A stretch of DNA of 64,000 bases, taken from contig CAZYUB010000012.1 of the NCBI GenBank assembly GCA_964650515.1, positions 1,944-65,943 of the forward strand, written 5' to 3'. Every line of letters starts with the position of its first letter. The stretch's first letter is position 1. Made by a program: the position numbers and the translations under genes. Origin of the DNA: an uncultured Planctomycetia bacterium (GTDB lineage Bacteria; Omnitrophota; Gorgyraeia; Pluralincolimonadales; Pluralincolimonadaceae). A model generated the notes under the pieces. That model was not told the DNA's origin. It saw only the letters and a program-made list of their open reading frames with translations, and did no database searches. Shown piece after piece: positions 30,475 through 46,307 of the stretch.

Positions 30475-30477
30475 GCC

Positions 30478-32370
30478 ATGCCAAAGGACAACGACAGCCT
30501 GCTGAAGATCCGCGCGGCTTTCGTGCTCCTGGCTGCGATACCCCTCTTCTTCTCCGTTTTCAGGACCTTCGAGACATATGAACTGCAGACGCTCGACCTC
30601 CGGTTCAACATTAGGCCTCCCGTAAAAGTCAGCCCCGATATAGTCATCATAGAGATTGCAGAGGACACGATAAAGGACCTCGGGCGTTGGCCGTTCGACC
30701 GCGCGTTCCATGCCGACCTGATAAATTTCCTCGGCCAGCTCGGGGCGAAGGCGATCGTATTCGATATACAATTCGCCGAAGAGAGCCCTTCAGACAAATA
30801 CCTGGTCGAGGAGACCAGGAACGCCCGCTGCAACGTATACTATCCTTTAGTCCTGGAATATAAGGGCGCAAGCAGGAACGGGCTCCCGTACGCGCCGAAG
30901 GTCGAAGTCCCGATAATGGGGACTCTCGCGGAGGCGGCAAAGGGCACGGGATTCATCAACGTGATACCCGACGCGGACGGCAAGGTCAGGAAGGTGCCGC
31001 TGAAGATAGAGTGCGGCGGCAGGGAATACCTCCAGCTTGCCTATATGGTGGCAAAAGATAATTACGACCTCAGGGGCAGGAAGATACCGGTTGACGATGA
31101 AGGCATGTTCCTGATCAATTATCCCGGCAAATGGGCAAAGACGTTCAAGCATTATTCCTTTTCCGATATACTCGTGTCGTTCGAGAGCAAAGTCAACGGG
31201 GAAGAGGGAAGGATCAGCTTGGACGGGTTCCACGGGAAGGTGTGTTTCGTCGGCCTGACGGAGACCGGCGGCGTTGACGCGAGGGCCAATCCCTACGAGA
31301 CGGCATATCCTATGGTTGGCGCGCACGCGAGCGTGCTGAACTCCATAATAGAGGGTAAGTACCTTGTCAGGGCAGGCAGGCCCGTGAACCTGGCGCTGCT
31401 GCTGGTCCTGTGCCTGCCGATAGCGTTCTTCGCCCACAGGGCAAAGCCGCTCTCCGCGCTCAAATTCTTCATTTCGGCCCTGGCATCGTTCATCCTTGCC
31501 GGGTTCATCCTGTTTATCGCGTTCGGCCTATGGATAGACATGTTCTATCCGGTTGCGCTCGCCGTGGCGGTCTATCTCGGCACGACGGTGTATAAATACC
31601 TTATTGAGCGCAGGAACCGGCTGCTGCTGGACAAGGAGCTCTCGATCGCGAAGAAGATACAGATGGATTTCCTGCCCCAATCGGTCCCGCAGTTCGAGGA
31701 GATAGATATGGCGGCCTCGATAGATACCGCAAAGGCGGTCGGCGGCGACCTTTATGATTTCGCCGATTTCGCGAACATAAAACTCGTCGCGCAGAAGAAG
31801 CTCGGGATTATGATCGGCGACGTATCCGGCAAGGGGGTGCCGGCCGCGCTCTTCATGGCGAGGGCCATAGCGGATTTCAGGCATTATTCCGGGAACAGCA
31901 CGAAGCCGTCGGAGGTCCTCGGCGAGCTGAACAGGCAGATAACCCTTAACTACAAGGCAGGGCTGTTCATCACGATGTTCTATATGATATTCGACGCCTC
32001 GGACCGCGGGCTCGTGTTCTCGAACGCGGGGCATCTTCCGGCAATACGGGTAAAAGCGTCCGGCGGGCTCGAACTGCTGAAGACCGAGGGGACCCCGCTC
32101 GGGCTCATAGAAGACGAAACCTATCTCGATGACGGAATAAAGCTTGAGCCGGGCGATTCGGTAGTGCTTTATACCGACGGTATTACCGAAGCGCGAAATG
32201 CCGCAAAAGAGGAATTCGGAGAAGAGCGGCTTAAAGGCGTTATATCAAAAAACCACTATGCCTCGCCGCTGCCGATGGTCAACGCGATCAAGACCGAGCT
32301 CTCCAGGTTTGTGGGCAACGAACCGCAGCATGACGACTGCACCCTGATCGTCCTCAAGGTAAAAGATTGA
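30478..32370 (+). CDS. CHASE2 sensor domain membrane protein fused to a PP2C/SpoIIE-type Ser phosphatase (RsbU-like)
   Basis: N-terminal TM, periplasmic CHASE2, 3 TM, then a PP2C domain (GGDLYDF...IGDVSGKGVPAALFMA...YTDGITEA). Confidence 0.8.
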   Translation: MPKDNDSLLKIRAAFVLLAAIPLFFSVFRTFETYELQTLDLRFNIRPPVKVSPDIVIIEIAEDTIKDLGRWPFDRAFHADLINFLGQLGAKAIVFDIQFAEESPSDKYLVEETRNARCNVYYPLVLEYKGASRNGLPYAPKVEVPIMGTLAEAAKGTGFINVIPDADGKVRKVPLKIECGGREYLQLAYMVAKDNYDLRGRKIPVDDEGMFLINYPGKWAKTFKHYSFSDILVSFESKVNGEEGRISLDGFHGKVCFVGLTETGGVDARANPYETAYPMVGAHASVLNSIIEGKYLVRAGRPVNLALLLVLCLPIAFFAHRAKPLSALKFFISALASFILAGFILFIAFGLWIDMFYPVALAVAVYLGTTVYKYLIERRNRLLLDKELSIAKKIQMDFLPQSVPQFEEIDMAASIDTAKAVGGDLYDFADFANIKLVAQKKLGIMIGDVSGKGVPAALFMARAIADFRHYSGNSTKPSEVLGELNRQITLNYKAGLFITMFYMIFDASDRGLVFSNAGHLPAIRVKASGGLELLKTEGTPLGLIEDETYLDDGIKLEPGDSVVLYTDGITEARNAAKEEFGEERLKGVISKNHYASPLPMVNAIKTELSRFVGNEPQHDDCTLIVLKVKD

Positions 32371-33875
32371 AAGCGTTTTTATCGGCGTTGCTTATAGCGG
32401 CCGCCGGCATCGCCGTATATGCCAACTCGGCCGGCGGGAAATTCCTGTGGGATGACGAGCTTCTCGTCAGCGGGAATCCGGTGATCAGGGAATGGTCAAA
32501 CGCGCCGGGGGTATTCCTTGGCAGGCAGACGGCGCCGCAGGACGCGCAGCCGTACATCTACCGCCCGCTGCAGTTCATAAGCTATATGGCCGACCACTCC
32601 GTATGGGGCCTTGACTCGCGCGGCTATCACCTGACAAATATCGCGATACATATCCTTGCCGCATTATGCGCCTGTTGGTTCGCATACCTTATCTCAAATA
32701 ACCTGCTGTTGGCTTCCATCACGGGTTTGTTGTTCGTCGTAAACCCGCTTAATACCGAGGCGGTCTCGTATATCTCGGGGCGCGCAGACCCGTTGTCGGC
32801 TTTATTTATCTTCCTCGGGATGGCCTTTTACGTGAGGTCGGAGGAGGCGGGGAAGAAGCGGTATTATTACCTGGTGCTGCTGTGCTGGATAGCGTCCGTA
32901 TTATCCCGCGAGAGCGGCCTTATATTCCCGCTGCTTCTTCTAGTGTATCACGTATCGTTCAGGAAGAAGCCGGACTGGAGATACCTCTCGCCTTTATTCG
33001 CGGCCGTCCTGCTCTATGCGGCAATAGTACCGAACGCGCGTAATATCTATTCGGCCTGCACGGCCTCGATAGCCGAACGGCTCCCGGGATTTTTCGCGTC
33101 CATAACAGGTTATATGAAGCTCCTGTTGGCCCCAGTGGGGCTGCATATGGAATACGGGAACAGGCTGTTTGCGTGGTCCGACCCGGCGGCCATGCTCGGG
33201 ATAGCAATAACCGTATCGTTAATAGCGCTTGCTTTTGCCCGCAGGAATGCCCGCGCCGATGACGGTATCTTCTGTTTCTCTGTATTATGGTTCTTCGCGG
33301 CGCTGCTTCCTTATTCCGGCATCATCCCGATGAACGCCTATATGGCCGAGCATTGGCTTTATGTGCCTGCGTTCGGGTTCTTCCTGGTTGCGGCGAAGTG
33401 GTTCAGCGCACTTATGGCGGGCAGGTTCCGCAGGATAGCGGCTCCCGCGGCCATATGCGTTGTGCTGGCTTATTCCGCGCTGACGGTAGCCCAGAACCGG
33501 TACTGGAGCGATCCGATCAGGTTCTACGAGACGACGCTGCGTTATGCGCCGGAAAGCCACCGGCTTTATTATAACCTCGGCATTCAGTACAAGGTATCCT
33601 CAAGGGTCCGCGACGCGATATCCTGCTACAGCAAGGCGATAGAGCTGGACCCGGACAACCCTTCCTATTATAACAATCGCGCGAATGCGTTCGCGCAGCA
33701 GGGGGAGTTTGGCAAGGCGATATCCGATTACACGAAAGCGATAGATCTCGATCCTCGCCATGTAAATGCCTACCTTAACAGGGCTAGGGCCTATCAGGAA
33801 TCAGGCCGGCCCGACATGGCAGCAAAAGACCTCGAAAAGGCAGAAGCCCTCATACATCCCGCCACTCAAAAATAA
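32367..33875 (+). CDS. TMTC/PMT_2-like multi-pass membrane protein with C-terminal TPR repeats (putative protein O-mannosyltransferase family)
   Basis: Hallmark FLWDDELLV...NP motif, about 10 TM, C-terminal TPRs. TTG start overlaps the upstream stop (TTGA). Confidence 0.65.
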   Translation: MKAFLSALLIAAAGIAVYANSAGGKFLWDDELLVSGNPVIREWSNAPGVFLGRQTAPQDAQPYIYRPLQFISYMADHSVWGLDSRGYHLTNIAIHILAALCACWFAYLISNNLLLASITGLLFVVNPLNTEAVSYISGRADPLSALFIFLGMAFYVRSEEAGKKRYYYLVLLCWIASVLSRESGLIFPLLLLVYHVSFRKKPDWRYLSPLFAAVLLYAAIVPNARNIYSACTASIAERLPGFFASITGYMKLLLAPVGLHMEYGNRLFAWSDPAAMLGIAITVSLIALAFARRNARADDGIFCFSVLWFFAALLPYSGIIPMNAYMAEHWLYVPAFGFFLVAAKWFSALMAGRFRRIAAPAAICVVLAYSALTVAQNRYWSDPIRFYETTLRYAPESHRLYYNLGIQYKVSSRVRDAISCYSKAIELDPDNPSYYNNRANAFAQQGEFGKAISDYTKAIDLDPRHVNAYLNRARAYQESGRPDMAAKDLEKAEALIHPATQK

Positions 33876-34573: not shown

Positions 34574-36106
34574 ATGCTTGCAAAAGTGGAGAGCAGGAGC
34601 GTACTCGGTATAGAGTCGAGGAAGGTCGACGTCGAGGTTGACATAGCGGGCGGGCTGCCTTCCTTTACCATAGTGGGACTTGCGGACACGGCCGTCAAGG
34701 AGAGCAGGGACAGGGTCATATCGGCGATAAAGAATTCCGGGTTCAAATTCCCTCCGAAGAGGATAACCATAAACCTCGCGCCGGCGGACCTAAGGAAAGA
34801 GGGTGCCAGCTATGACCTCGCCATCGCCCTCGGGATACTATCGGCTAACGGAGATCTCGGGCAGGGCTTGACCGAGGGCATGGTCTTTTGCGGTGAGCTT
34901 TCACTCGACGGCAGGGTAAGGCCGATAAACGGCGTGCTCCCGATCGCGATGGGGTTACCCGCCGGCGGCTGTAAGGGCCTTGTAATACCTGAAGGGAATT
35001 CCGGGGAGGCCGGCATTGTCGGAGGGCTTCCGGTATACCCGGTCGGCAGCCTCAAAGAAGCCGCGGGGTTCCTGAACGGGTCAGTAAAGGTCAGCCCGGT
35101 AAAGGCCTCCGGGCATTGCGGGGATATATCCGTTCAAAACCCCGATATCGACTTCAGCGATGTAAAGGGGCAATGGCACGTGAAGAGGGGGCTCGAGGTC
35201 GCCGCGGCGGGAGGGCACAATGTGCTTATGATCGGGCCGCCGGGTTCCGGGAAGACGATGCTCGCGCAGAGGCTTATAACGATATTGCCCGTCCTGTCGG
35301 CGGGTGAGATGCTCGAGACGACGAAGATACACAGCATATCCGGCTTGCTGAACGGCGGGAATTACCTTGTCTCGCTGAGGCCTTTCAGGATGCCGCACCA
35401 TACGGTGTCTTATGCAGGCCTCGTAGGGGGAGGGAACAGGCTCAAGCCCGGGGAGATAAGTTTGGCGCATAATGGCGTGCTGTTCCTCGATGAGCTTCCG
35501 GAATTCAGGAGGGACGCGCTTGAGGCGCTTCGCCAGCCCCTCGAAGGAGGTGAGGTCGTCATCTCGAGGGCCGAGCTAAGCCTCAAATATCCGGCGAAAT
35601 TCATGCTGGTAGCGGCGATGAACCCGTGCCCGTGCGGTTATTTTACGGACCCGAAGAAAGAATGCCATTGCACGCCGCCGGTCATACAGAGGTACCTGTC
35701 AAAAGTGTCGGGACCGCTTCTCGACAGGATAGACATACACCTCGAGGTGCCTTCGCTGAAATACAAGGAACTCTCGGGCAGGAGCCGCGGAGAAAGTTCC
35801 GAGGCCATAAGGGCAAGGGTCAATAAGGCAAGGGCGGCCCAGAAAAAGCGCTATGATGGCCTTTCGATATACTGCAACGCGCACCTGGGCTCAAAAGATA
35901 CCGAAAGGTTTTGTTGTATAGACAAGGAGGCCTCGGAGCTTCTTAAACTTGCCATCCTGGAGCTGGGTTTGAGCGCGAGGGGATACGATAAGGTCTTGAA
36001 GATAGCGAGGACGATAGCCGACCTTGCGGGTTCAGGGATGATATCAGCCGAGCACATATCGGAAGCGATAAACTACAGGAGCTTAGACAGGGATCTGGGG
36101 TTCTGA
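34574..36106 (+). CDS. comM: Mg-chelatase-like AAA+ ATPase YifB/ComM
   Basis: Lon-like N-terminus, Walker A GPPGSGKTM, and the C-terminal ChlI region. Confidence 0.9.
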   Translation: MLAKVESRSVLGIESRKVDVEVDIAGGLPSFTIVGLADTAVKESRDRVISAIKNSGFKFPPKRITINLAPADLRKEGASYDLAIALGILSANGDLGQGLTEGMVFCGELSLDGRVRPINGVLPIAMGLPAGGCKGLVIPEGNSGEAGIVGGLPVYPVGSLKEAAGFLNGSVKVSPVKASGHCGDISVQNPDIDFSDVKGQWHVKRGLEVAAAGGHNVLMIGPPGSGKTMLAQRLITILPVLSAGEMLETTKIHSISGLLNGGNYLVSLRPFRMPHHTVSYAGLVGGGNRLKPGEISLAHNGVLFLDELPEFRRDALEALRQPLEGGEVVISRAELSLKYPAKFMLVAAMNPCPCGYFTDPKKECHCTPPVIQRYLSKVSGPLLDRIDIHLEVPSLKYKELSGRSRGESSEAIRARVNKARAAQKKRYDGLSIYCNAHLGSKDTERFCCIDKEASELLKLAILELGLSARGYDKVLKIARTIADLAGSGMISAEHISEAINYRSLDRDLGF

Positions 36107-39100
36107 AGGGCGCGTGCTCCGCGACAGTCCGAGCACAGCCCTTTTTATCGCGAAGACCAGGCGTGACAGGGCCATCGCGGCCAGTATTCCCGCTAATATG
36201 ATCGATGTCAGGAAGAGGGAGTCCCTGTTATGGGAGCGCCTGAAAAGCATCAGCAGGGTCTCCGCCTCTTCGGCTTTTGATATGAGCACTTCCGGGGCAA
36301 GCCGAAGCTCCTCGAGGTCCTGTTTCGCCTTCACGGATATCTTCTCGAGGTCAGCGTAGTAACGCCTTCCGGACTTCAACCCGGCTATCTCGGCATCGAG
36401 GCGGGAAATATACCTCTTCAATGCGGCTATCCTTGCGTTATATTCGTCGTTGCCGGAATATATGGGCATGAACAATCCGATCCTCCTGACGGAGCCGTTG
36501 GCGGCCAGGTCCGCTACGATGTCCTTCAGGACAAAATTCCGCGGGTTTTTCAGCTTCTCCCTGTCGAACCATACCTGCATATTCTTGAGCAGTTTGCGGC
36601 TCATCCTTTCGGTCTCGTCGAGGTTCTCGTTGAACAGCCTCTTATACGCCATCTTTATGATATAGTTCGTCCACCACGACGACTGGGCCCTCTGGTAGTT
36701 GGTCTTCTGCCTCATGAGGAATTTCCCGTACCTGCCCGTCAGGTAGACGTTGACCGCCTCATTGAACTCGACCGCGGAATCCTTCTCGGGCTGCAGGCCG
36801 ATTATCTCTCGGTATGATGACGATACGTAATCCATATGCGATACGATATCCGCCATGACGGAAGGGGGGATGTTCTCGAAGGTCATCAACAGCGGCCACA
36901 GGAATTCAAGGGAGTCCGCGACCTTTTCGTCGTGCGACCTTATCTCGGCCATCCTTGAAGCTATAATGGCGTCGTTCTTGACTACGCGGCTGTTCGAGAG
37001 GAATTTGTGCAGGAAATCATCCGCGGACCGGGACCCTTTGAACGCTCGCGGGTTCCGGTAAATGCTCAACAGCCTGAAAGTGACGGAATCCATCTTTTCC
37101 TGCCATTTCTGCAGGTCATCGAAGGTCTTTGCGGCCATGAGGCCGCCGAGGTCATTGTCCTTTACTGACTTCAATATCCTGAAGAAGGCGCCAAGGTCTT
37201 TCTCGGGCAGGCCGAGGTCGTACGCCCTCTGCAGGTGGTACCATATGATGTTGACGATAATATCATTGTCGCTCACCTTCGGCACCGCGGCGAAACCGCT
37301 GTCCTTGAGGCCGTAGATATCCGTTATGACGCCGATGTCGTTAGCGTTCACGCCTTTTATCTTCCCGGACATCATCTCGAGCTCCTTCGGGAAATAGGCG
37401 CCGGCCGCGTATTTATAGATATCCTGTATCGGCTTCAGGTACCCGTGCCGCAGCTCATAGAACGTGAGCTTCTTCTTCATGGCGAAGACCGCCATCCATT
37501 CGGCGTTGCCCTGCTTCAGCAGCTCGAGGTCGGGATATTCCCGCGCCGCGGACCTTATAGAACGCCTCAGCTGCATCGCCCTTATGATATCCGGCTCCGT
37601 GACCGCGACCCCGAGGTTGCTAAGTATGCTTATGCCCGTCTGCAGCGTCGTATAATGCAGGACCCTGCCGTCGGTTATGCGTATGCCGGTCTTCTCCTCG
37701 ACCTCGTCCCTGATGCCGGATTCGATGCCTTCGGGTATCCTGGCAGGCCAGAACTCGTTTATCTGGGCGAGGAAAGCGGCCTTTTCAACGTCTCGGTGGT
37801 CCTTGAAGGCGAGGGAGTTAATCGCTATCTTTTCTGTTATGCCGGGCACGAAGAACGGGAGGTTCGGGTAATTCACGGGAAGCTCTTTCCAGAAATCCTT
37901 GAGCACCGACGCGAGCCTTTGCAGCTCCTCCGCGCCGAGCTCACGCCCGAAATCGAGCTTGAAATCCTCCCTGAGCCGGGCGAGGGTCATATAGGCGTTG
38001 AACCTCTTTATGGCCGGTGCCTCATTCTCGACGGTGTCCACGATGACCCTCAGCACGCGCCCGCCGTCTTTTTCGGTCCTCGGGTCGCGGCTCAGTTTTC
38101 GTTTGAGTATCTGTAGACGGAACGCGTTCTCGTATTCGAAGCCGGCGGGGAGGGGGAGGTCCTCGTTGAACCAGCCGTTTATCGCGGCGAATACCGGCGA
38201 GTAGTATTTGAAGTAGCCGCCGATCCCGTCCCAGCCCATGGACGCCCTGTTCTTTTCATATTCGAGCATCAGGTAGCCGCTTATGTTCCACCATGGTATC
38301 CTGCCGTATCCCGATGACATTCCAGCGCCGTAGAATTCCATGAATTCGGAAGCGAGGGCTTTCGGGCCGGCTTTTATGGAGTTCGCCTCAGCCTCGATAA
38401 CGAGTTTTGCGAGGAATTCGTAGGCGATGTCGAGCTTCATCTTTTCAGGGGTCTGGTCCGCGAGTATGCGGACCTGGCTTTCGGCATATCCCATATCGCG
38501 GTAAGTGGCCTCTACAACGCCCGATACGAACCCGGCCGGAAGCTCGAGTTTTTGTTTGTGCCAGGCCTCAGACATCCTGAATTCGTCATCGAAATAATCG
38601 AACAGCTCGGCTATGCCGCTGAAACCGGCCTTGTAATATATCAGCGTAAGGTAGCCGCTCTTTTCCCACCACGGCTTCTCGCTCATTCCCGAGGAGACGC
38701 CCGTCTCGTATATCTGCATGAACTTCGAGGCGAACTCGGCCGGGTCTACATCTATGCGGTTTGCCTTCGCCTCAAGCATGAGGGAGGAGAGCCAGATGTA
38801 GCCGGTCATCTCTTTTCCCGCTTCCGATTGTTTCTCGATGCGCTTTTCAATCCTCGAGATAATGCCCGCGTTCTCGCGGGGGGAGAGGCGGGGGTCCTCG
38901 AATATGCCCTTTTGCCTGAGCTCGTTGTTGAACATTATCTCGTTTATGATCTTCTCGTCCAGGATTACGCCCTGCTTCTTCAGCCCGTCGGCCTCCTCAA
39001 GCTGTGGGCCGAGGTAATCCATGTAATCGTCCATGTTCCAGCCGTATCTTTCGGCCATGACGTAATAGGACACCGCGAGGTATTCGCCGATGCCTTTGGC

Positions 39101-42100
39101 CCTGATGCCGTCCTTGAGGCCGGGATATTTGTCGCCGACCCTTTCCCATATCCCGACAAGGTAGCCCCTGAGCTTATCGGCGGTCTCTTTTATCACGTAG
39201 TTCGAGGGCTTGCCTTCGTTACCGAGTGTCTGCCATGTGTCGAGCGCCATGCGGTAATCCGACATGATGCATATGAGCTTGATGTCGCTCCTTTCGTATT
39301 CGACCTTCTTGACACCTTTCTTCCTGTAATCATAGAGGAACCTGTCCCTGTTTACCTTATACATCTCGTTCGGGACGGAGGTCTTATACCACGCGTAATT
39401 CACATAATCGAAACCGAGGTATTCCATTACCTCTTCCGTGGACATGTTGTTCTTCATGCCGGTCACTATAAGGTATTCGAGTTTTCCCTGCTTGCCCGCG
39501 ACAACGGTCTCGACGATGCCGAGGATCGTGCCGTATGGGATCTGGGTGGCCGGGATTATCTTCAGCACCGGGATGTAGAAGGTGACCGTGCCGAGCAGCT
39601 GGAAAGCGTTCTTAGCGGGTTCCGGCACGAGCTGGAACGGCTTCAGCGGGACGGACGGGTATTTTTTGCGGAACTGCGGCATCTTGTCGTATTCGGCGAA
39701 GAACTTCCTGAGGTTCTCCTCGTTCACGTCAAGCCCGGAATAATACAGCGAGAGGATGCCCCTTTGGAGGTATTCGTAGCGCTTCCAGATGCCCCGTTTC
39801 CTGGCGAAATCCGCGTTCCAGTATTTCTTCGTCTCTTCCCACTTGAAGACCTCCGCGATATCCTTCATCGACATCCCCGTCTCGCGGCTCGTCTCGAACC
39901 AGAACTGCCCGGTAAGCGGGTCAAGCACGTTGAACCACGGGTATTCCTTGCCGTAACGCGCTATCATCCCGAGCCCTTCGGCCCTGTCGAGCGCCATTAT
40001 AGCCATTCCCGCTATGTTGAACTTCAGGGAAAGCGCGATCTTGGCCCCCGCGAGCGCGGTTGAGGCGAGCAGGCGCCGTTTTCCCATCTTGTCCGACGCG
40101 TCGAAAAAATTCCTGAAAGCGGTAAGGTCCCCGAGCTCCGGCTCCTCGAGAGGGGATACGGCCTCACGCACGACAGGGGGAACCGCGTCCACGGCCGAGG
40201 GCTTCAATATCGGTATTGCCACCGAAAGCTTCTCCTGCACCGGAAGCACTTCGGCAAGCAGTTTCGTCTTTCCCTCGCGCGACTTCAACACCGGGGCCAG
40301 CCTGCTGTCTACGACCTTATCCGGTATGTAAAACTCTATCTTCTTGAGGTCGGCGCGCATCTTGTCTAGCAGGACCTCTTCCTGCGCGGAATAGCTGAAC
40401 TTATCTCTTGATTCCGGCAGGACGAGTTTTATCATGTCGTGCTTGTTCTGGCTCGGAAGCCCCCTAAGGGCGGAGAACATTATGACAAGCAGAAGGGAAG
40501 CGGAAACTATTATATAGGCCTTTTTCAGCTTTTCGCGGGGCGTGAGGCTGCGCGGGTCCAGGTCCCTGACCTTGCCGATGGCCGCGATGGCATAGCGGCC
40601 GAACATCAGCGAGCCCGCCCACGGCAGGATCCCGAATATCCCGAACACGGTCATCGGCGCTATCCCCGTAATGATATAAATGGCCGCTATGGACGATATT
40701 ATCAAGCCCATCTTTTGGGCTTCCTCGATCTTTATGTCCCTGAACTCGTTTTTAGTTATCCTGCCTTCGAGCTCCATCAAGGAGAGGGTGCTCGAGGTCT
40801 TCCATTCGGGGACTTTGTTGGCCTTCTCGGATTTATATATCGAGTATGAAAGCAGGGGTTTTATGACGGTCAACTGCAGGGACGATACGGTCGTCTCTAT
40901 CGTCTGCAGGACACTGTCGAAGAACTGGTCCACGAGCTCTATAGCGAAGGCCCCCGGGCGGATCGGGCGCCCTTCGGCTCGGGACCTGCGGAATATGTAC
41001 CTTACGGGGTCTATGAACCTGTGCACGAATATGATCCCGAAGAACGAGAGCGCCAATGTCAGGATATAAGCGTTTGAATTGGTCGGCACTATCAGGATAA
41101 AGGGAAATATCCAAAGCATGCACATCAGCATGATAAAGCAGAACAGCATCGGGTCGGAAAGCAGCCTTCCGATCGCCCAGCTCAGGTGCCACTGGTGGTA
41201 ATATGTCAGCAGTTTCCTGTAGGAGATCAGCGTCCTGATCGCCTGGAAATCTCCGATAAGCCACCTGACGTCGCGTATGATGTATGTGACGAAATGGAGC
41301 TGGTCGCGTTCGCCGACCGCGACGGAGTTATTATAGAAATTCGCCGTATATTTTACTATTTCGTCCATCCCCGTTTCTTTCAGGTGATGGAATTTCCTGG
41401 CGAAGCGGTACTCGCCGGTGTTGATATCGAAATGGTGCAGCCATACATCCCCGGCCGCGTCCTTCTCCAGTTTTATGAACCTTGTCGTATCGGCAAGGTC
41501 TATGCGCAGCACGACGGCGCCGAACTTCTCGAGGACCCTGCTTACGATATACCTCCTCGCGCCGAGCAACCCCTCGCAGTTCCTGCTGAATATCGATTCC
41601 TGCCAGTCGTGCGAAAGGACTTTAGCGGGTGAAAGCGTCTCCGGCTTGAAGACCCTTTCGTAGTATACCTTTGTCCTCGTGAAGCCCTTCCCGAAGAAAG
41701 CGCGCTCCTTGCCGTAGATGCCCGAGACGACCTTCATGTTTATCTCGTTCTCTATGTCGCGCTCGTTCTTCATTATCTTCCAGTAGACGCTCTCCTTGGC
41801 CGCGCCGCCGAGGTAGGGGGGAGTTATGACGATGTGCGGCTGCGCTATGACTATATGGCTGTTGTCGGGATGCATCATTATGGCGAGCGCCTTCTCGAGC
41901 TCGCCAGGATAGAGCTCGTTCTTATCGTCCATGATGACGCAGAACTCCGAGATCCTCTCCTGGTCGATCTCGACATCTTCGCCGCGCAGTATTCGTTCCG
42001 CGGCCTCGTCAGGGGTATATTGTTTTATGCCGAGGGCCTTCACGAGGTCCGTCGACCATATCCTGCAAAGCAGCGGTTTGTTCCTGTTTTGCGTGAACTC

Positions 42101-43609
42101 AAAACCCTCATCGGTGAACAGGTACGGCTTCGCCTGCCCGGTGTTCATGAAATGCATCAGGTTGCCTATGCCGCCGACCTTTCCGGCGAACCCGCCGGCT
42201 TTTATCATGCCGAGTTTCGTGTTGTCGAACCATTCGCTCTTCGACCTGTTCATGTAAAGGAAATCGAGGTTAGGGTAGGAATATTCCGACGAGAATTCCC
42301 GCAGACGCTTGACCTCGTATTCTATTATCTTGTCGTTCTTCGTGTCGGACCAGAACGTCATCACGAGCAGGATGCGGTTGCCGAACGTCTCGAGGGTAGG
42401 CCTCAGCGCGTCTATCGTCTTCCTGAAATAAAATATAGCTATCTCTGCGTCGGATTCGTTGTCGCTCCTCTTGGCCGTTATATAGGATATCTTCAGGGGT
42501 TTCTCTTCGGTGTAGTTCGCGTTTATGTATTCTCCGAGCTCGGGCAGCATCTTGTGGCCAGGCACGCTGACCATAAGGCTTACTATGAACAGGGATATCT
42601 TATGCGAGGGCTGCCAGGATATGTAATAGGTGATGCCGAAGCAGAGGGCTATCCAGATGAAAGTGATGGGAGGCATGTGCGGCAGGCCCGGGAAGCCGTA
42701 GACGGTAAGCGTCGGGACAACGGCGACGAGCGAAGCAAAGAAAAGCCTGAAGGAACGCGTGAGGCCTTCATAGAGGCGCGCCTCGGGCCCTTTGACGAAC
42801 GGGGGAGGGATCAGCGTGTCCTTGTTCTTGCGCAGCTGGTCCATCAGCAGGACCGCTTTGCGGTAACGGCCAAAATCCCTCAGGTTCTTTACGGCGTCCT
42901 TATATTCGGGATAGTTATCGAGCTCCCTCGTGAATTTTCCGAGCAGGCTCAGCTCGTGGTCCCCGAGCCGGTGGCCTATGATCCTGCGGTAGAGCAGCTC
43001 CGGGGGCACGACAAGTTTTTCGGCAAGCGCGGTAACGGCCTCCTTGATCTTTGCCCCGTCGTTTGCCCTGACCGCTTCCTTGAGATCGGAGAAGATCTGC
43101 GAGTAATCGGTAAAATCGCTTATGCTGCTGGCTTTCCTTATGTCTTCCTCGAAGACGGACATGAAATCGTGCAGCAGTTTCGACTGCATCTCAAGGCGTT
43201 TCTGCCTGAGCGTAGAGCCGAGGGCGGCCTTGCGTTTTTCGAGGGAAGAGATCTCGCGAAGCACGGCGGCGTCCGTATTCCTGTCATCGGACTGGTCGTT
43301 TTCCACGGACCTGTAGAGGCGCTCGAGCCTCTTATCTATAGAGCGCGTCTCCCGCCCGTAGCTTCTGGCGAGCCATTTCGTATCGCGGTATATGATCCCG
43401 GCGAGGGCCTTCTTGACGATTATCTCGGACATCACGAAATTATGCTGTCCGGGGGTCGCGTACCTGAACCTGCCCCTCCTGAGGTGCCCGAACCTTTCGA
43501 GCAGGCGGGTAATGGAAAAAGGCCAGAGGTACCCGGGGCGCGGCAGCTCCTGCAGGAAATCCGTCAGCTGCTTCGATATCCTGGAGAGTTCGCTCCGGTC
43601 GTTCGGCAT
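36083..43609 (-). CDS. Giant (2508 aa) multi-pass membrane protein with an OpgH/MdoH-like GT2 glucosyltransferase domain and a ~1400-aa C-terminal soluble region with internal repeats
   Basis: Uninterrupted 7.5-kb ORF. TM clusters at aa ~290-350, 820-865, 965-1047 and 2462-2482. The GT2-like core at aa ~380-800 has a VIMDDKNE putative DxD and an OpgH-like block VLSHDWQESIF (cf. E. coli OpgH ILSHDFVEA; recalled, not aligned). The ATG abuts the ybaK-like TAA. Confidence 0.8.
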   Translation of the reverse strand: MPNDRSELSRISKQLTDFLQELPRPGYLWPFSITRLLERFGHLRRGRFRYATPGQHNFVMSEIIVKKALAGIIYRDTKWLARSYGRETRSIDKRLERLYRSVENDQSDDRNTDAAVLREISSLEKRKAALGSTLRQKRLEMQSKLLHDFMSVFEEDIRKASSISDFTDYSQIFSDLKEAVRANDGAKIKEAVTALAEKLVVPPELLYRRIIGHRLGDHELSLLGKFTRELDNYPEYKDAVKNLRDFGRYRKAVLLMDQLRKNKDTLIPPPFVKGPEARLYEGLTRSFRLFFASLVAVVPTLTVYGFPGLPHMPPITFIWIALCFGITYYISWQPSHKISLFIVSLMVSVPGHKMLPELGEYINANYTEEKPLKISYITAKRSDNESDAEIAIFYFRKTIDALRPTLETFGNRILLVMTFWSDTKNDKIIEYEVKRLREFSSEYSYPNLDFLYMNRSKSEWFDNTKLGMIKAGGFAGKVGGIGNLMHFMNTGQAKPYLFTDEGFEFTQNRNKPLLCRIWSTDLVKALGIKQYTPDEAAERILRGEDVEIDQERISEFCVIMDDKNELYPGELEKALAIMMHPDNSHIVIAQPHIVITPPYLGGAAKESVYWKIMKNERDIENEINMKVVSGIYGKERAFFGKGFTRTKVYYERVFKPETLSPAKVLSHDWQESIFSRNCEGLLGARRYIVSRVLEKFGAVVLRIDLADTTRFIKLEKDAAGDVWLHHFDINTGEYRFARKFHHLKETGMDEIVKYTANFYNNSVAVGERDQLHFVTYIIRDVRWLIGDFQAIRTLISYRKLLTYYHQWHLSWAIGRLLSDPMLFCFIMLMCMLWIFPFILIVPTNSNAYILTLALSFFGIIFVHRFIDPVRYIFRRSRAEGRPIRPGAFAIELVDQFFDSVLQTIETTVSSLQLTVIKPLLSYSIYKSEKANKVPEWKTSSTLSLMELEGRITKNEFRDIKIEEAQKMGLIISSIAAIYIITGIAPMTVFGIFGILPWAGSLMFGRYAIAAIGKVRDLDPRSLTPREKLKKAYIIVSASLLLVIMFSALRGLPSQNKHDMIKLVLPESRDKFSYSAQEEVLLDKMRADLKKIEFYIPDKVVDSRLAPVLKSREGKTKLLAEVLPVQEKLSVAIPILKPSAVDAVPPVVREAVSPLEEPELGDLTAFRNFFDASDKMGKRRLLASTALAGAKIALSLKFNIAGMAIMALDRAEGLGMIARYGKEYPWFNVLDPLTGQFWFETSRETGMSMKDIAEVFKWEETKKYWNADFARKRGIWKRYEYLQRGILSLYYSGLDVNEENLRKFFAEYDKMPQFRKKYPSVPLKPFQLVPEPAKNAFQLLGTVTFYIPVLKIIPATQIPYGTILGIVETVVAGKQGKLEYLIVTGMKNNMSTEEVMEYLGFDYVNYAWYKTSVPNEMYKVNRDRFLYDYRKKGVKKVEYERSDIKLICIMSDYRMALDTWQTLGNEGKPSNYVIKETADKLRGYLVGIWERVGDKYPGLKDGIRAKGIGEYLAVSYYVMAERYGWNMDDYMDYLGPQLEEADGLKKQGVILDEKIINEIMFNNELRQKGIFEDPRLSPRENAGIISRIEKRIEKQSEAGKEMTGYIWLSSLMLEAKANRIDVDPAEFASKFMQIYETGVSSGMSEKPWWEKSGYLTLIYYKAGFSGIAELFDYFDDEFRMSEAWHKQKLELPAGFVSGVVEATYRDMGYAESQVRILADQTPEKMKLDIAYEFLAKLVIEAEANSIKAGPKALASEFMEFYGAGMSSGYGRIPWWNISGYLMLEYEKNRASMGWDGIGGYFKYYSPVFAAINGWFNEDLPLPAGFEYENAFRLQILKRKLSRDPRTEKDGGRVLRVIVDTVENEAPAIKRFNAYMTLARLREDFKLDFGRELGAEELQRLASVLKDFWKELPVNYPNLPFFVPGITEKIAINSLAFKDHRDVEKAAFLAQINEFWPARIPEGIESGIRDEVEEKTGIRITDGRVLHYTTLQTGISILSNLGVAVTEPDIIRAMQLRRSIRSAAREYPDLELLKQGNAEWMAVFAMKKKLTFYELRHGYLKPIQDIYKYAAGAYFPKELEMMSGKIKGVNANDIGVITDIYGLKDSGFAAVPKVSDNDIIVNIIWYHLQRAYDLGLPEKDLGAFFRILKSVKDNDLGGLMAAKTFDDLQKWQEKMDSVTFRLLSIYRNPRAFKGSRSADDFLHKFLSNSRVVKNDAIIASRMAEIRSHDEKVADSLEFLWPLLMTFENIPPSVMADIVSHMDYVSSSYREIIGLQPEKDSAVEFNEAVNVYLTGRYGKFLMRQKTNYQRAQSSWWTNYIIKMAYKRLFNENLDETERMSRKLLKNMQVWFDREKLKNPRNFVLKDIVADLAANGSVRRIGLFMPIYSGNDEYNARIAALKRYISRLDAEIAGLKSGRRYYADLEKISVKAKQDLEELRLAPEVLISKAEEAETLLMLFRRSHNRDSLFLTSIILAGILAAMALSRLVFAIKRAVLGLSRSTRPSEPQIPV

Positions 43610-44080
43610 TTAGATATGCTTACCGATATCGGCTATCTTAGGTTTCGCGAGTTTCTCGAAATCGGAGTACTTCATCTTTACGGTGTCGGTATGTGTGCCG
43701 CCGTTGAAGACGATCTCGACGTCTTCCCTGAGTATCTTGTCGGAGACCGTCTCGAGGCCGAAGAGCTCGCCGAAAGGAGGCATCGCGCCCGGCTTGTAAT
43801 CGGGAACGGCCTTCTCAATGTCCTTTTCGGTGGCTATCTTGACCGACTTGCACTTCAGGGCTGATTTCAGTTTCTTGAGGTCTATAAGATGGATCGCCGG
43901 AAGGACAGCGAGCGCGAAACCCTTATCCGTCTTTACGAGGACAGATTTAATTACTTGCTTGCCCGGGACCTCCTGGGCGGCCGCTATCTCCTGCGCGGTA
44001 TACGCGAGCTTGTGTTTCAGGGCCTTGTACTTGACCTTGTTCGAGTCAAGGTACTTCTTGAGCTTTGTGGGAATCGCCAT
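43610..44080 (-). CDS. YbaK/ProX-type aminoacyl-tRNA deacylase domain protein
   Basis: 156 aa with KSVLVKTDKGFALAVLP and GAMPPFG motifs characteristic of the tRNA_edit domain. Confidence 0.65.
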   Translation of the reverse strand: MAIPTKLKKYLDSNKVKYKALKHKLAYTAQEIAAAQEVPGKQVIKSVLVKTDKGFALAVLPAIHLIDLKKLKSALKCKSVKIATEKDIEKAVPDYKPGAMPPFGELFGLETVSDKILREDVEIVFNGGTHTDTVKMKYSDFEKLAKPKIADIGKHI

Positions 44081-44108: not shown

Positions 44109-44195
44109 TGGTGCCGAAGGAGAGATTTGAACTCTCAAGACCTTGCGGTCACTGCGCCCTGAACGCAGCGCGTATGCCAGTTCCGCCACTTCGGC
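44109..44195 (-). tRNA. tRNA-Leu (anticodon CAG), type II with long variable arm, CCA encoded
   Basis: The reverse complement folds as acceptor GCCGAAG/CTTCGGC, anticodon stem CTGCG/CGCAG with loop TTCAGGG, a 15-nt variable arm, and T-arm GAGAG-TTCAAAT-CTCTC. Closely resembles E. coli tRNA-Leu(CAG). Confidence 0.85.
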
Positions 44196-44199
44196 AAAT

Positions 44200-46227
44200 C
44201 TATTCCTTTACGAACCACATCTTGTCACGGTATTCCTGGACCATCCTGCAGGTGTTGAAATAATGGCTTTGTTTGATACAGTTTATCATAATATCGATCC
44301 ATTTTGAACCGGTATTAAGTTTCCCGTCCATATTTGTCTCGTAGTAGAGTTTTACCATCTTTTCCAGCGCCGCGTAAAGCTGCGCCGAGTCTGAATCGAG
44401 CCGCAGGTCGAGCTCGCTTCCTATCGGGTCCCCGGTGTTATGCCTGTAGCCGAATATCTCGCCTATGTTCGCGTCTGGATTCTCTACCGTGTCGGCGGCC
44501 TCGACGACCCAGCCGTCGAGCGTCGAGAGCTGCAGGACGCCGTTAAGGATCGCTTTCATTCCGCTCGTGCCGGACGCCTCGAACGGGGGAAGGGGGTTGT
44601 TGAGCCAGACATCTACCGAGTTCGTAAGCAGCTTGCCGAAGAAGATATCGTAATTTTCAAGCATTATTACACGCAGGCTTGAACCCTGAGTGCCGAGGGA
44701 ATCTATCGTGTTCATTATGCTGTTTATGTAGGTGCCGACCAAACTATCGTTCGGGTGGGCTTTTCCCGCGATAATTATCTGGACCGGCCCGTATTTCTCC
44801 GCGATATCGAGGAGTTTCCGCGGGTCCTGGAAGAGCAGGCTCGGCCTCTTATACGCTGCGATCCTCCTGGCCCAGCAGAGAGTGAAGCAGTTCTCCTTAA
44901 TGTCCCAGTTCGAGAATACCGACGAAAGTCTGCGCTTGTTCGCCTGGTGCGCGTCCCAGAGGTCGGCCCTGAACTGCGCGTCATCCCTGAGCCGCTCAAG
45001 GTCCATTAATTCGGAATGGCCCGATGTGCAGGGCTTGGCCTCGTTCCTGTATTTAATAAGGAGATTGGCGATATCATCCGAGATCCACGTCGGTATATGT
45101 ATGCCGTTCGTTATTGACCTTATCTTGCCGGCATGCTGCGGGAACTGCATGCGGGTGACTTCGCCGTGTTTCTTCGCGACAGCGTTCACGCTCCTGCAGC
45201 AATTCAGCAGCAGCACCGTAAGGTTCGCGCTGCTGTCCTCGGAACCGTTCTTCTTTATGAAATCCATGTTCTCGTCCGGCAGGATCTTCTCGAGCTCCTT
45301 CAGCGGGAAGCGGTCGTGGCCCGCCGCGACGGGGGTATGGCACGTGTAGACGAAATTCCGCTCGAGCGTGGCGAGGGCGTCCTTATCGAGCGCGTCGGCC
45401 ATCTCTACGAGCGCCATAGCGGCGTGCCCCTCGTTGAGGTGGTACCTTTTTATGTTATACCCGAGCGCCTCGAACGCCTTGATCCCGCCTATGCCGAGTA
45501 TCACGCGCTGCATTATCTTAATATAGGAATTGTCGCTCCTGTATAGCTGGTCGGTAAGCCTCCTGAGCTCCGGGCTGTTGCCGTCGACATCGGAGTCGAG
45601 CAGTATCAGCGGGACCGCGTGTTCCTTGTTGAAGCTGTAGACGTAATATTTCCAGAGACGCAGGGAGAGCTCACCGCCCCTGAGGGGTATCTTTATCACC
45701 GTATCGAGGGGGATAAGGCCCGGGTATGAGTAGGGGTCCCAGTTCGTCTCCTCGGGGACCTGGCCGTCCTTGAACCAGAAGTTCTGCTTGAAGTAGCCCT
45801 TCCTCCAGAGTATGCCTACAGCCGCCAGCGATATGTTAAGGTCGGCCGACGATTTTAAACTGTCGCCCGCGAGCACTCCGAGGCCGCCGCTGTATATCGG
45901 CAAATCCATTATCCTCCGGTCCATCTTGAACTGGAAGTAATAGTCCCTTATGCGCATGTTAGAGAAGATGTTCTGCTTCGGGAGTATGTTCGATTCCGAG
46001 ACGGGGGAGGAAGAACTGAAGCTGTTGTATACGCTCGTAGCCAACCCGTATTCCATGGAGAAATACCCCACGGACTGCTCTTCCGGGGAGGAGAGCCGTT
46101 TTTCGGCCTGGACTATGCTCTTCAGCGGGAAGCCGAAGTATAGGCCGTCCGTTATATCTCTTGAGTATTTTTCCTCGAACCGGCTGACTTTTACCAGCGA
46201 AAGGAATTCTTTAAGGGTGTCTTCCAT
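44200..46227 (-). CDS. glgP: Alpha-glucan (glycogen/maltodextrin) phosphorylase, GT35 family
   Basis: 675 aa with the PLP-site block EASGTSGMKAILNG, GGLGVLAGD and EGHAAMALVE motifs. Confidence 0.88.
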   Translation of the reverse strand: MEDTLKEFLSLVKVSRFEEKYSRDITDGLYFGFPLKSIVQAEKRLSSPEEQSVGYFSMEYGLATSVYNSFSSSSPVSESNILPKQNIFSNMRIRDYYFQFKMDRRIMDLPIYSGGLGVLAGDSLKSSADLNISLAAVGILWRKGYFKQNFWFKDGQVPEETNWDPYSYPGLIPLDTVIKIPLRGGELSLRLWKYYVYSFNKEHAVPLILLDSDVDGNSPELRRLTDQLYRSDNSYIKIMQRVILGIGGIKAFEALGYNIKRYHLNEGHAAMALVEMADALDKDALATLERNFVYTCHTPVAAGHDRFPLKELEKILPDENMDFIKKNGSEDSSANLTVLLLNCCRSVNAVAKKHGEVTRMQFPQHAGKIRSITNGIHIPTWISDDIANLLIKYRNEAKPCTSGHSELMDLERLRDDAQFRADLWDAHQANKRRLSSVFSNWDIKENCFTLCWARRIAAYKRPSLLFQDPRKLLDIAEKYGPVQIIIAGKAHPNDSLVGTYINSIMNTIDSLGTQGSSLRVIMLENYDIFFGKLLTNSVDVWLNNPLPPFEASGTSGMKAILNGVLQLSTLDGWVVEAADTVENPDANIGEIFGYRHNTGDPIGSELDLRLDSDSAQLYAALEKMVKLYYETNMDGKLNTGSKWIDIMINCIKQSHYFNTCRMVQEYRDKMWFVKE

Positions 46228-46307
46228 ATGGGTATCCGGAACTCAACTGATTATACCGATTATCTTCGATTTTTTCAATGAAATATGTTATATTATTGAT
46301 ACCTAAA

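What the first reader, a model, noticed from the sequence alone, without database searches (positions are those of the whole stretch)
36083..43609. Giant 2508-aa membrane glycosyltransferase-like protein (OpgH-like GT2 core plus large extra domains)
This single 7.5-kb ORF has four TM clusters. The GT2 region's blocks VIMDDKNE and VLSHDWQESIF resemble OpgH/MdoH, the periplasmic glucan backbone synthase. It also carries about 1400 extra C-terminal residues and about 285 N-terminal residues of unknown function. The overall layout (GT2 + TM + large accessory domains) recalls cyclic beta-1,2-glucan synthase-type giant enzymes, but the accessory domains are not ones I recognise. With the adjacent alpha-glucan phosphorylase it may form a polysaccharide synthesis and processing module.
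Basis: partly seen in the sequence, partly recalled or inferred. Interest (0 to 1): 0.7.

Follow-up and report, generated by a model that had tools for sequence, protein, structure and literature searches.

The report
Giant membrane sugar-polymer synthase, unclassified family
This 2508-residue membrane protein of an uncultured bacterium (probably Omnitrophota) carries a very divergent sugar-chain-making enzyme domain most like that of the cyclic glucan synthase Cgs and cellulose synthase, joined to about 1400 residues of unknown fold that probably sit outside the inner membrane; no protein-family library recognises any part of it.

Summary
The ORF is real: 36083..43609 (-), 2508 aa, with four hydrophobic clusters. 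Orthologues of 2508-2522 aa occur in at least eight independent assemblies, so it is not a frameshift or chimera.

Cgs/GT84 is the nearest solved relative, and OpgH similarity is marginal.

The protein fails the curated thresholds of every family tested. A Lys sits where the second Asp of DxD lies (D-D-K-N). A ~75-aa beta insertion lies inside the catalytic domain.

The 1400-aa C-terminal region has no detectable relative. It contains ~125-aa aromatic-rich repeats, is bracketed by TM helices, and is probably periplasmic.

The link to the neighbouring alpha-glucan phosphorylase is not supported beyond close relatives.

The parts
36083..43609 (-). Whole gene, 2508 aa
   Evidence: Single ORF. Full-length orthologues occur in independent assemblies.
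42755..43609 (-). N-terminal domain, aa 1-285. Arg/Leu-rich, no signal peptide, presumably cytoplasmic; function unknown.
   Evidence: No library hit. Conserved in P0006-P0008 and in the Elusimicrobia giants L009 and L010.
42620..42745 (-). TM helices 1-2, aa 289-330
   Evidence: Hydropathy.
41150..42532 (-). GT-A catalytic domain, aa ~360-820. Motifs: WSD (D422), F-A-G-K-V-G-x-x-G-N (474-483), D-D-K-N (561-564), HPxN...QP (580-591), IF1-like helix (608-631), FFGKG (638-642), SHDWQES (666-672), GERD...RDxRW (766-783).
41918..41929 (-). D561-D562-K563-N564, the family's version of the DxD motif. Lys sits where the second Asp of Cgs D-A-D lies.
   Evidence: The HMMER alignment places D561 on Cgs D624 (residue roles from PMC10901819). 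D, K and N are invariant in 11 family members. Distant members P0031 and P0035 keep D-A-D-N.
41594..41614 (-). S-H-D-W-Q-E-S, aa 666-672. D668 aligns with the catalytic base D739 of Cgs (BcsA D343).
41330..41563 (-). ~75-aa beta-strand insertion, aa 683-760, between the catalytic-base motif and the RW motif
   Evidence: Six predicted strands with pLDDT ~77-93. Present in all full-length family members. It is the split point of the two-gene form in Polyangiaceae.
41261..41275 (-). R-D-V-R-W, aa 779-783, equivalent to the QxxRW motif of processive GT2 enzymes. R782 aligns with Cgs R773.
40457..41143 (-). TM helices 3-7 and interface helices, aa 823-1051. Includes the invariant loop K-V-P-E-W-K-T-S-S (932-940, window 40790-40816).
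   Evidence: Hydropathy, AF2 helices, loop charges. The similarity of E-W-K-T-S-S to gating-loop motifs of other synthases is my recollection and was not tested.
36203..40456 (-). C-terminal region, aa 1052-2469. Fold unknown; aromatic-rich, one Cys; probably extracytoplasmic.
   Evidence: No Pfam or PDB hit, even with family profiles. Collinear segments are conserved in P0006, P0017, P0027, P0030/33/34/39, L009 and L010. Bracketed by TM helices in all these relatives. Positive-inside analysis.
38486..38854 (-). Repeat copy 1, aa 1586-1708, ~125 aa, with a P-W-W motif
   Evidence: Self-comparison E 1e-16 to 1e-18. Repeat HMM.
38108..38476 (-). Repeat copy 2, aa 1712-1834
   Evidence: The same unit occurs 5 times in L009 and 4 times in L010.
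36146..36202 (-). Terminal TM helix, aa 2470-2488, followed by a basic 20-aa tail
   Evidence: A TM helix in the equivalent position is conserved in relatives.
43610..44080 (-). YbaK/ProX-like aminoacyl-tRNA deacylase gene. Its TAA stop directly abuts the ATG of the giant gene.
   Evidence: Pfam tRNA_edit E 9e-27. Sequence of the junction. No functional link to the giant gene is claimed.
44109..44195 (-). tRNA-Leu (CAG) between the phosphorylase and the ybaK-like gene
   Evidence: ARAGORN.
44200..46227 (-). Alpha-glucan-family phosphorylase (GT35), with a promoter-like site at 46250-46278
   Evidence: TIGR02094 E 1e-120. Promoter-like site matching 11 of 12 positions. Neighbourhood is kept only among close orthologues.

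Best explanation
The gene encodes a membrane-integrated, probably processive, inverting GT-A glycosyltransferase of a previously unclassified family. [quoted passage not shown]

Shown:
- The fold and its docking under a TM bundle are predicted with good confidence.
- The signature residues align: nucleotide-binding D422 and D561, catalytic base D668 in S-H-D, and R782-W783 of the RW motif.

Inferred mechanism:
- On the cytoplasmic face the domain (aa ~360-820) takes a nucleotide sugar and elongates a glycan. UDP-glucose is the best guess from the nearest relatives.
- Lys563, which replaces the second Asp of DxD, may contact the diphosphate in place of part of the metal site.
- The predicted IF1-like helix, the RW helix and seven TM helices would pass the chain across the inner membrane, as in BcsA or HAS. 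This differs from Cgs, which keeps its product in the cytoplasm.
- The chain would then meet the 1400-aa C-terminal region. That region is tethered by a TM helix at each end and carries aromatic-rich ~125-aa repeats. It would bind, guide or remodel the polymer in the periplasm.

The polymer's identity and the activity of the C-terminal region are unknown.
For: - Family-profile search of the PDB finds only Cgs (8rf9/8rf0, E 0.0012). Three collinear segments cover the K-x-G, D-A-D...Q-P...G-K-G...S-H-D and R-x-x-R-W motifs.
- AF2 model of aa 360-1010: pLDDT 75.2, pTM 0.76.
- Foldseek: Cgs 9e-7 and 1.2e-5, hyaluronan synthase 6.6e-5, chitin synthases ~1e-4.
- Sub-threshold but concordant hits fall on the same motif region: MdoH, Glyco_trans_2_3 and Glycos_transf_2, hhalign against OpgH.
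- The catalytic motifs are the most conserved columns across 38 relatives. The roles of the matching Cgs and BcsA residues are given in PMC10901819.
- Topology: the K/R-rich loops 867-890 (6 K/R) and 1005-1032 (8 K/R) are placed inside. TM 1033-1051 then points outward, and the terminal TM is followed by a basic tail.
- TM helices bracket the C-terminal region in all relatives that have it, and short forms (1060-1160 aa) end right after the TM bundle.
- The repeat copy number varies: 2 here, 4-5 in Elusimicrobia.
Against: - No curated family threshold is met.
- The PDB sequence hit is marginal (E 0.0012) and identity to Cgs is ~11-15%.
- The structural evidence rests on a predicted model built from only 15 sequences. 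pLDDT in the TM part is 50-75.
- D422 is not conserved across the family (often N or G).
- The second DxD Asp is replaced by Lys, which could also mean altered or lost activity.
- Topology comes from hydropathy and the positive-inside rule only. If aa 966-1010 forms one helix rather than two, the C-terminal region would be cytoplasmic, as in Cgs.
- Nothing is known about donor, acceptor or product.
Confidence: 0.6

Rival explanations
1. A Cgs-like, non-exporting synthase. The GT domain and the 1400-aa C-terminal region are both cytoplasmic. The C-terminal region processes the nascent chain inside the cell (trimming, cyclising or length control), and the product is exported by a separate transporter.
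For: - Cgs is the closest relative by both sequence profile and fold.
- The protein shares gigantism with Cgs and the order NTD - TM - GT - TM - large C-terminal region (PMC10901819).
- aa 974-1004 is only ~31 hydrophobic residues and could be a single TM helix, which would flip the predicted side of the C-terminal region.
Against: - The C-terminal profiles (A5-A8) give no hit to the Cgs cyclase or GH94 regions, nor to anything else in the PDB, at E up to 10.
- A single helix at 974-1004 would put the 8-K/R loop 1005-1032 outside, against the positive-inside rule.
- AF2 predicts two helices there, aa 961-980 and 987-1002.
- A TM helix after the C-terminal region is conserved in relatives. A cytoplasmic domain would not need one.
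- An IF1-like helix is predicted where Cgs has a loop (compared).
Confidence: 0.2
2. A non-processive membrane GT-A enzyme that transfers one sugar to a lipid carrier or to a protein (in the manner of GtrB, DPMS or ArnC, or a protein glycosyltransferase). The C-terminal region would be its periplasmic target or partner.
Against: - The best matches are all processive synthases, with 340-380 residues aligned including the interface and TM helices.
- The R-D-x-R-W motif (the QxxRW equivalent) and the FFGKG motif are invariant. By established knowledge of GT2 synthases these motifs are typical of processive enzymes.
Confidence: 0.12
3. A catalytically dead GT-like scaffold within a large envelope protein, like the many giant multi-TM proteins of Omnitrophota. 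The conserved motifs would serve binding only.
For: - Lys replaces the metal-binding Asp of DxD.
- D422 is variable in the family.
- Omnitrophota and Elusimicrobiota are known for very long multi-TM proteins of unknown function (10.1101/2023.11.21.568195; 10.64898/2026.06.07.730766).
Against: - The catalytic base (S-H-D), the first Asp of DxD, G-K-G and R-W are invariant or nearly so across phyla, while overall identity falls to 20-30%. This pattern is expected for an active site.
- Short forms of 1060-1160 aa consist of little more than the GT domain plus the TM bundle.
Confidence: 0.06
4. The giant gene and the upstream alpha-glucan phosphorylase form one polysaccharide synthesis and processing module.
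For: - Same strand, with one strong promoter-like site upstream of the phosphorylase.
- The order phosphorylase - ybaK - giant is kept in L001, L003, L004, L006 and L007.
- A phosphorylase yields glucose-1-phosphate, a precursor of UDP-glucose (established biochemistry).
Against: - All loci that keep the order are close orthologues (at least 74% identity), where synteny is expected from shared descent.
- The 56%-identical orthologue L008 sits between dxs/LAGLIDADG and NAD kinase/gltX. Other family members sit among ABC permeases or AraC and esterase genes.
- A tRNA-Leu gene and a YbaK-like gene lie in between.
- GT35 phosphorylases act on alpha-1,4-glucans. Inverting GT2/GT84-type enzymes make beta-linked products from the usual alpha-linked nucleotide sugars (established knowledge).
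Confidence: 0.1

Closest known systems
[quoted passage not shown]
   Same: - Giant inner-membrane protein with the order N-terminal domain, 2 TM helices, GT-A domain docked under the membrane, further TM helices, then a very large C-terminal part.
- Best sequence-profile hit and best fold hit.
- Shared motifs: S-D, D-x-x, Q-P, G-K-G, L-S-H-D, R-x-x-R-W-x-x-G-D.
   Different: - ~11-15% identity.
- D-D-K-N instead of D-A-D.
- A 75-aa beta insertion between S-H-D and R-W.
- A predicted IF1 helix instead of the Tyr-bearing IF1h loop.
- One extra TM helix before the C-terminal region and one after it, so that region is probably periplasmic rather than cytoplasmic.
- No detectable cyclase (GH189) or GH94 phosphorylase domain.
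Bacterial cellulose synthase BcsA and other channel-forming GT2 synthases (HAS, CHS, CesA, CslF6)
   Same: - A QxxRW-type motif and an FFCGS-like F-F-G-K-G motif.
- A predicted IF1 helix.
- A conserved loop after IF3 (E-W-K-T-S-S) that recalls gating-loop motifs. This last point is from memory and was not tested.
   Different: - Pfam GT2 models are not reached.
- No PilZ domain was recognised.
- Different TM count.
- Large N- and C-terminal regions.
OpgH/MdoH (osmoregulated periplasmic glucan synthase, GT2)
   Same: By eye the blocks line up: L-S-D-S/W-S-D-T, M-x-x-N-P-N-x-x-I-I-Q/M-H-P-D-N-x-x-I-V-I-A-Q, S-H-D-F-V-E-A/S-H-D-W-Q-E-S, R-D-R-R-W/R-D-V-R-W. hhalign gives E 0.001 over the RW motif plus the following TM helix.
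   Different: - NCBIfam MdoH model: 10.4 bits against a cut-off of 884.
- No OpgG partner gene nearby.
- Three times the size of OpgH.
- The exhaustive profile search returned only 38 proteins, whose lengths and domain layouts show no typical OpgH among them.
Very long multi-TM proteins of Omnitrophota and Elusimicrobiota (West-Roberts et al. 2023 preprint; Nielsen and Lui 2026 preprint)
   Same: Same phyla. Relatives of this gene in Elusimicrobia exceed 5500-6000 aa. They are multi-TM and largely unannotated.
   Different: Those studies treat proteins of 5,000-10,000 aa and above. Term searches of both texts found no membrane glucan synthase-like domain described. This protein is far shorter and no SecA-like or dockerin domain was detected in it.

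Membership tests
GT84 (Cgs-type glucan synthase domain) | GT-A fold docked beneath TM helices, with interface helices | tested here: met
   [not shown]
GT84 (Cgs-type glucan synthase domain) | Signature residues D527, D624 (UDP binding), D739 (catalytic base), R773 of the RW motif (PMC10901819) | tested here: met
   The HMMER alignment places D422, D561, D668 and R782-W783 on these residues. Caveats: the first block scores -2.6 bits on its own, D422 varies in the wider family, and K563 replaces Cgs D626.
GT84 (Cgs-type glucan synthase domain) | Significant sequence similarity to family members or a family HMM | tested here: inconclusive
   The family profile against Cgs gives E 0.0012 for the whole sequence, with the best single stretch at i-E 0.7. 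The single protein gives nothing. No dbCAN/CAZy GT84 model is available here.
GT84 (Cgs-type glucan synthase domain) | IF1 replaced by a loop carrying the primer tyrosine (Y694); compact 6-TM bundle without a channel | tested here: inconclusive
   The model predicts a 24-residue helix (aa 608-631) at the IF1 position, and Cgs Y694 aligns with E622. Seven TM helices are inferred before the C-terminal region. Confidence in this part of the model is only moderate.
Cgs whole-protein architecture | Cyclase (GH189-like) and GH94 phosphorylase domains C-terminal to the GT domain | tested here: not met
   Profiles of four C-terminal segments (A5-A8) give no hit to Cgs or any glycoside hydrolase or phosphorylase in the PDB at E up to 10. 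No Pfam hit. Fold-level similarity was not tested.
GT2 (Pfam Glycos_transf_2 / Glyco_trans_2_3) | Score at or above the Pfam gathering threshold | tested here: not met
   The whole protein gives no hit. The best sub-threshold score is Glyco_trans_2_3 at 20.5 bits against 27. Only 2 of 15 family members give any GT2 hit.
OpgH/MdoH (NCBIfam NF003963) | Equivalog model cut-off | tested here: not met
   10.4 bits against a cut-off of 884, E 0.15, aa 772-861 only.
BcsA-type synthase-translocase | QxxRW motif, FFCGS-type motif, catalytic Asp, IF helices | tested here: met
   [not shown]
BcsA-type synthase-translocase | A transmembrane channel holding the nascent polymer; a PilZ/c-di-GMP gate | not testable with these tools
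   Model coordinates cannot be inspected here. No PilZ hit in Pfam. The beta insertion at 683-760 lacks the RxxxR and D-x-S-x-x-G signatures, judged by eye against my recollection of those motifs.

The most novel reading that the evidence does not exclude
This could be the founding member of a new CAZy-level family of processive synthase-translocases, found in Omnitrophota, Elusimicrobiota, Polyangiaceae and scattered others. Its distinguishing features would be:
- an active site in which a Lys (D-x-K-N) replaces the metal-binding Asp, possibly making catalysis metal-independent;
- direct coupling to a doubly membrane-tethered periplasmic domain with expandable ~125-aa repeats, which handles a so far unknown envelope or secreted polysaccharide.

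In these ultra-small, often episymbiotic bacteria the polymer might serve attachment to hosts.
Probability: 0.3. Interest if true: 0.75.

Novelty: new variant of a known kind. Interest (0 to 1): 0.55.

Why it matters
Membrane-integrated processive glycosyltransferases make cellulose, chitin, hyaluronan and periplasmic glucans. Each structurally distinct branch has shown a different way of starting, moving and finishing a polymer.

This branch is invisible to Pfam, NCBIfam and PDB sequence searches and has only 38 cluster representatives among 1.84 billion. It combines three features:
- a Cgs-like catalytic core;
- an unusual D-x-K-N site;
- a very large, probably periplasmic region whose repeats change in number between phyla.

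If it is active, it would point to an unknown polysaccharide in Omnitrophota and Elusimicrobiota. It would also give a function to part of the giant-protein repertoire of these phyla. It is not a change of paradigm: the kind of machine is known.

Tried and rejected
Searches that found nothing:
- Single-protein searches of Pfam, NCBIfam, PHROGs and PDB sequences gave nothing significant.
- Pfam on ten relatives gave nothing.
- PDB profile searches with four C-terminal segment alignments gave nothing.

Tool attempts that failed or added little:
- The first AF2 job, on the 6 close orthologues (aa 280-1060), was too poor to use for a fold search (pLDDT 40).
- The search for homologous proteins with the 15-sequence alignment returned no hit at all, not even the family itself. 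With the C-terminal region alone it returned one fragment. Both added nothing, and the tool's word prefilter seems unsuited to this family.
It was rerun with the motif-rich alignment A4.
- The afdb50 fold library was not available.

Readings rejected:
- Assembly artefact or chimera: rejected because many independent assemblies carry orthologues of the same length.
- PilZ identity for the beta insertion: considered, but I see no signature motifs by eye. Not formally tested.
- Taxon labels of close relatives disagree: Dehalococcoidales for P0003, Planctomycetia for L007, Omnitrophota for four species representatives plus P0052. I take Omnitrophota as most likely, without a marker-gene test.
Full report
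**1. Observation**

The window holds one ATG-started ORF on the minus strand, 36083..43609, of 2508 codons. A Kyte-Doolittle scan gives four hydrophobic clusters: aa 289-330, 823-866, 974-1051 and 2470-2488.

The gene is not an assembly artefact. Five protein clusters of 2508-2515 aa at 56-93% identity cover it end to end. Species-representative genomes carry intact ORFs of 2508-2522 aa (L004, L006, L007, L008).

Most close relatives are labelled Candidatus Omnitrophota. One is labelled Dehalococcoidales and one Planctomycetia. I take Omnitrophota as the likely source.

**2. What libraries say about the single protein**

Nothing is significant in Pfam, NCBIfam, PHROGs or PDB sequences. The only hints are sub-threshold, and all fall on aa ~754-861:
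- NCBIfam MdoH: E 0.15, 10.4 bits against a cut-off of 884.
- Pfam Glyco_trans_2_3: E 0.36 for aa 280-1060, and E 4.6e-4 (20.5 bits against 27) for the trimmed core.
- hhalign against E. coli OpgH, fetched as L002: E 0.046, aligning R-D-V-R-W-L-I-G-D to R-D-R-R-W-C-H-G-N.

**3. The family**

A profile of aa 280-1060 was scored by HMMER against 1.84 billion representative proteins. It found only 38 proteins.
- Many are giant: 2021, 4762, 4980, 5092, 6120, 6208 and 6475 aa.
- Ten of them were scanned and none has a Pfam domain.
- A scan of species-representative genomes for [LRD]SHDWQES added 18 loci:
  - Omnitrophota: ~2510 aa.
  - Elusimicrobia: ORFs over 5500 and over 6000 aa, running off the fetched DNA.
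  - Endomicrobia: 3871 aa.
  - Short forms of 1060-1160 aa in Actinomycetota, Atribacterota, a Clostridiales MAG and Brevefilum.
- Polyangiaceae carry a split form.

The most conserved columns are a set of motifs:
- F-x-K-K-v-G-N (aa 474-483)
- D-[DN]-K-N (561-564)
- L-E-K-A-L..M-L-H-P-e-N....q-P (570-591)
- F-F-G-K-G..R (638-645)
- S-H-D-W-Q-E-S (666-672)
- G-E-R-D-L-L-S......R-D-x-R-W-L-x-G-D-x-Q-M (766-790)
- a loop E-W-K-T-S-S (935-940)

**4. Link to known enzymes by sequence**

A 15-sequence alignment of the core (A3) was searched as a profile against all PDB sequences. [quoted passage not shown]

The match has three collinear pieces:
- the strand-2 S-D and K-x-G region;
- D-A-D ... L-Q-P-R ... 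F-T-G-K-G ... I-L-S-H-D;
- S-R-Q-H-R-W-A-R-G-D-W-Q.

I counted residues in the 8rf0 alignment. The residues that Sedzicki et al. name as the conserved signature are D527 and D624 (UDP), D739 (catalytic base) and R773 of the RW motif, which equal BcsA D179, D246, D343 and R382 (PMC10901819). They fall on D422, D561, D668 and R782 of this protein. The first of the three blocks scores below zero on its own, so the D422 match is the weakest.

The same profile against E. coli OpgH gives E 0.001, over the RW motif and the next TM helix only. By eye the other OpgH blocks also line up, but that is not a test.

**5. Link by structure**

The first AF2 job, on six close orthologues, failed (pLDDT 40). 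The second used A3 and covers aa 360-1010. It gave pLDDT 75.2 and pTM 0.76, with ~90 over most of the catalytic domain.

| Search | Match | Score |
|---|---|---|
| Foldseek vs PDB | Cgs | E 9e-7 and 1.2e-5 |
| | Chlorella virus hyaluronan synthase | E 6.6e-5 |
| | chitin synthases | E ~1e-4 |
| | BcsA | E 0.04 |

Sequence and predicted fold therefore agree. This is a membrane-integrated GT-A enzyme of the processive synthase type, and Cgs is its nearest solved relative.

**6. How it differs from those relatives**

(a) The DxD motif is D-D-K-N. D, K and N are invariant in 11 members. The Lys lies where Cgs has D626. Three distant members differ: P0031 and P0035 keep D-A-D-N, and P0040 has D-T-N-I.

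(b) About 75 residues (aa 683-760), predicted as six strands with pLDDT ~77-93, are inserted between the catalytic-base motif and the RW motif. The Polyangiaceae gene split lies inside this insertion.

(c) The model has a 24-residue helix (aa 608-631) at the IF1 position, where Cgs has a loop carrying the primer Tyr694.

(d) After the GT domain I infer five TM helices: 823-841, 848-866, ~961-980, ~987-1010 and 1033-1051.
- The loops 867-890 and 1005-1032 carry 6 and 8 Lys/Arg, while 842-847 carries none.
- By the positive-inside rule, aa 1052-2469 then lies outside the inner membrane.
- It returns through the terminal helix 2470-2488 to a basic cytoplasmic tail.
- In seven of nine family members checked, the loop before the last pre-domain helix has more Lys/Arg than the stretch after it; one is equal and one is reversed.
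- Every relative that has the C-terminal region also has a TM helix after it, and short forms stop right after the TM bundle.
- In Cgs, by contrast, all soluble domains are cytoplasmic and there are six TM helices.

**7. The accessory regions**

The N-terminal 285 residues and four consecutive C-terminal segments are conserved, in the same order, in the Elusimicrobia giants. Parts of them are conserved in P0006, P0017, P0027 and the Polyangiaceae C-terminal halves. They therefore belong to the family's architecture.

A ~125-aa unit with P-W-W, G-Y and L-P-x-G-F motifs is present twice here, at aa 1586-1708 and 1712-1834 (38-45% identity, E down to 1e-18). It occurs five times in L009 and four times in L010.

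Profiles of the four C-terminal segments find nothing in the PDB at E up to 10, so nothing resembles the Cgs cyclase or GH94 parts. Their fold is the main open point.

**8. Neighbourhood**

- The giant gene's ATG directly follows the TAA of a YbaK-like deacylase gene.
- Upstream of that lie a tRNA-Leu(CAG) gene and an alpha-glucan-family phosphorylase (TIGR02094, E 1e-120) with a strong promoter-like site.
- The block smpB / phosphorylase - ybaK - giant / comM is kept in all orthologues of at least 74% identity.
- The 56%-identical orthologue L008 sits between dxs plus a LAGLIDADG gene and NAD kinase plus gltX. More distant members have unrelated neighbours.
- The proposed synthesis and processing module with the phosphorylase is therefore not supported beyond shared descent. 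A GT35 alpha-glucan phosphorylase would at most feed glucose-1-phosphate.

**9. Mechanism I commit to (confidence 0.6 as a whole)**

- On the cytoplasmic side the GT-A domain binds a nucleotide sugar through D422, D561 and K563.
- D668 acts as the base and the RW helix holds the acceptor end.
- The chain grows processively and passes through the TM bundle into the periplasm.
- There the doubly anchored, repeat-bearing C-terminal region binds or remodels it.

That it is a GT-A synthase-type enzyme I hold at about 0.85. That the product is exported to a periplasmic C-terminal region I hold at about 0.55-0.6. That the product is a beta-glucan I hold at about 0.3.

Rivals, listed separately: a Cgs-like cytoplasmic processor (0.2), a non-processive transferase (0.12) and a dead scaffold (0.06).

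**10. Novelty**

The kind of machine is known. The family is not described in any library I could search. Term searches of two Omnitrophota giant-protein papers for glycosyltransferase and glucan found no mention of it. I rate it a new variant of a known kind, with interest 0.55.

Noticed in passing
window 44109-44195 (-): tRNA-Leu(CAG) found by ARAGORN between the phosphorylase and the ybaK-like gene, on the same strand as both. Rfam at gathering threshold did not list it.
   Followed up: partly
window 46278-47111 (+): smpB is followed immediately by the tmRNA gene (46761-47111, tag peptide ANELALAA). The pair is divergent from the phosphorylase promoter region.
   Followed up: no
window 56000-64000: G+C falls from ~0.55 to 0.43-0.49 just after a tRNA-Pro/Arg/His cluster (56517-56899). 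This may be an island integrated next to tRNA genes.
   Followed up: no
L001 10406-13056: In the contig of the 81% orthologue, comM is reduced to a 119-aa C-terminal fragment. It is followed by serine recombinase and HTH genes, which looks like a mobile element inserted into comM. In the window comM is intact at 510 aa.
   Followed up: no
P0019-P0025 and P0030/P0033/P0034/P0039 (Polyangiaceae and relatives): The family exists as two separate proteins. One, of ~940-1140 aa, ends just after S-H-D-F-Q-Q-S. The other, of ~2320 aa, begins with G-E-R-D-L-L-S...R-N-x-R-W. The active site is thus split inside the beta insertion. P0013 and P0016, which share the same S-H-D-F-Q-Q-S and R-N-x-R-W motif variants, are fused. 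Whether this is a true gene split, a frameshift or programmed recoding was not examined.
   Followed up: partly
L009 2575-19197 and L010 2357-20380: Elusimicrobia ORFs of over 5500 and over 6000 aa contain the whole architecture of this protein, in order. They have 1400-1900 extra N-terminal residues with further TM helices, and extra C-terminal sequence running off the fetched DNA.
   Followed up: partly
window 28549-33875 (+): A run of genes for signalling-type proteins: FecR-domain protein, a 342-aa protein with no family hit, a CHASE2-SpoIIE phosphatase (630 aa) and a TPR protein (502 aa).
   Followed up: no
window 53439-56393 (-): Another large ORF (984 aa), not examined.
   Followed up: no
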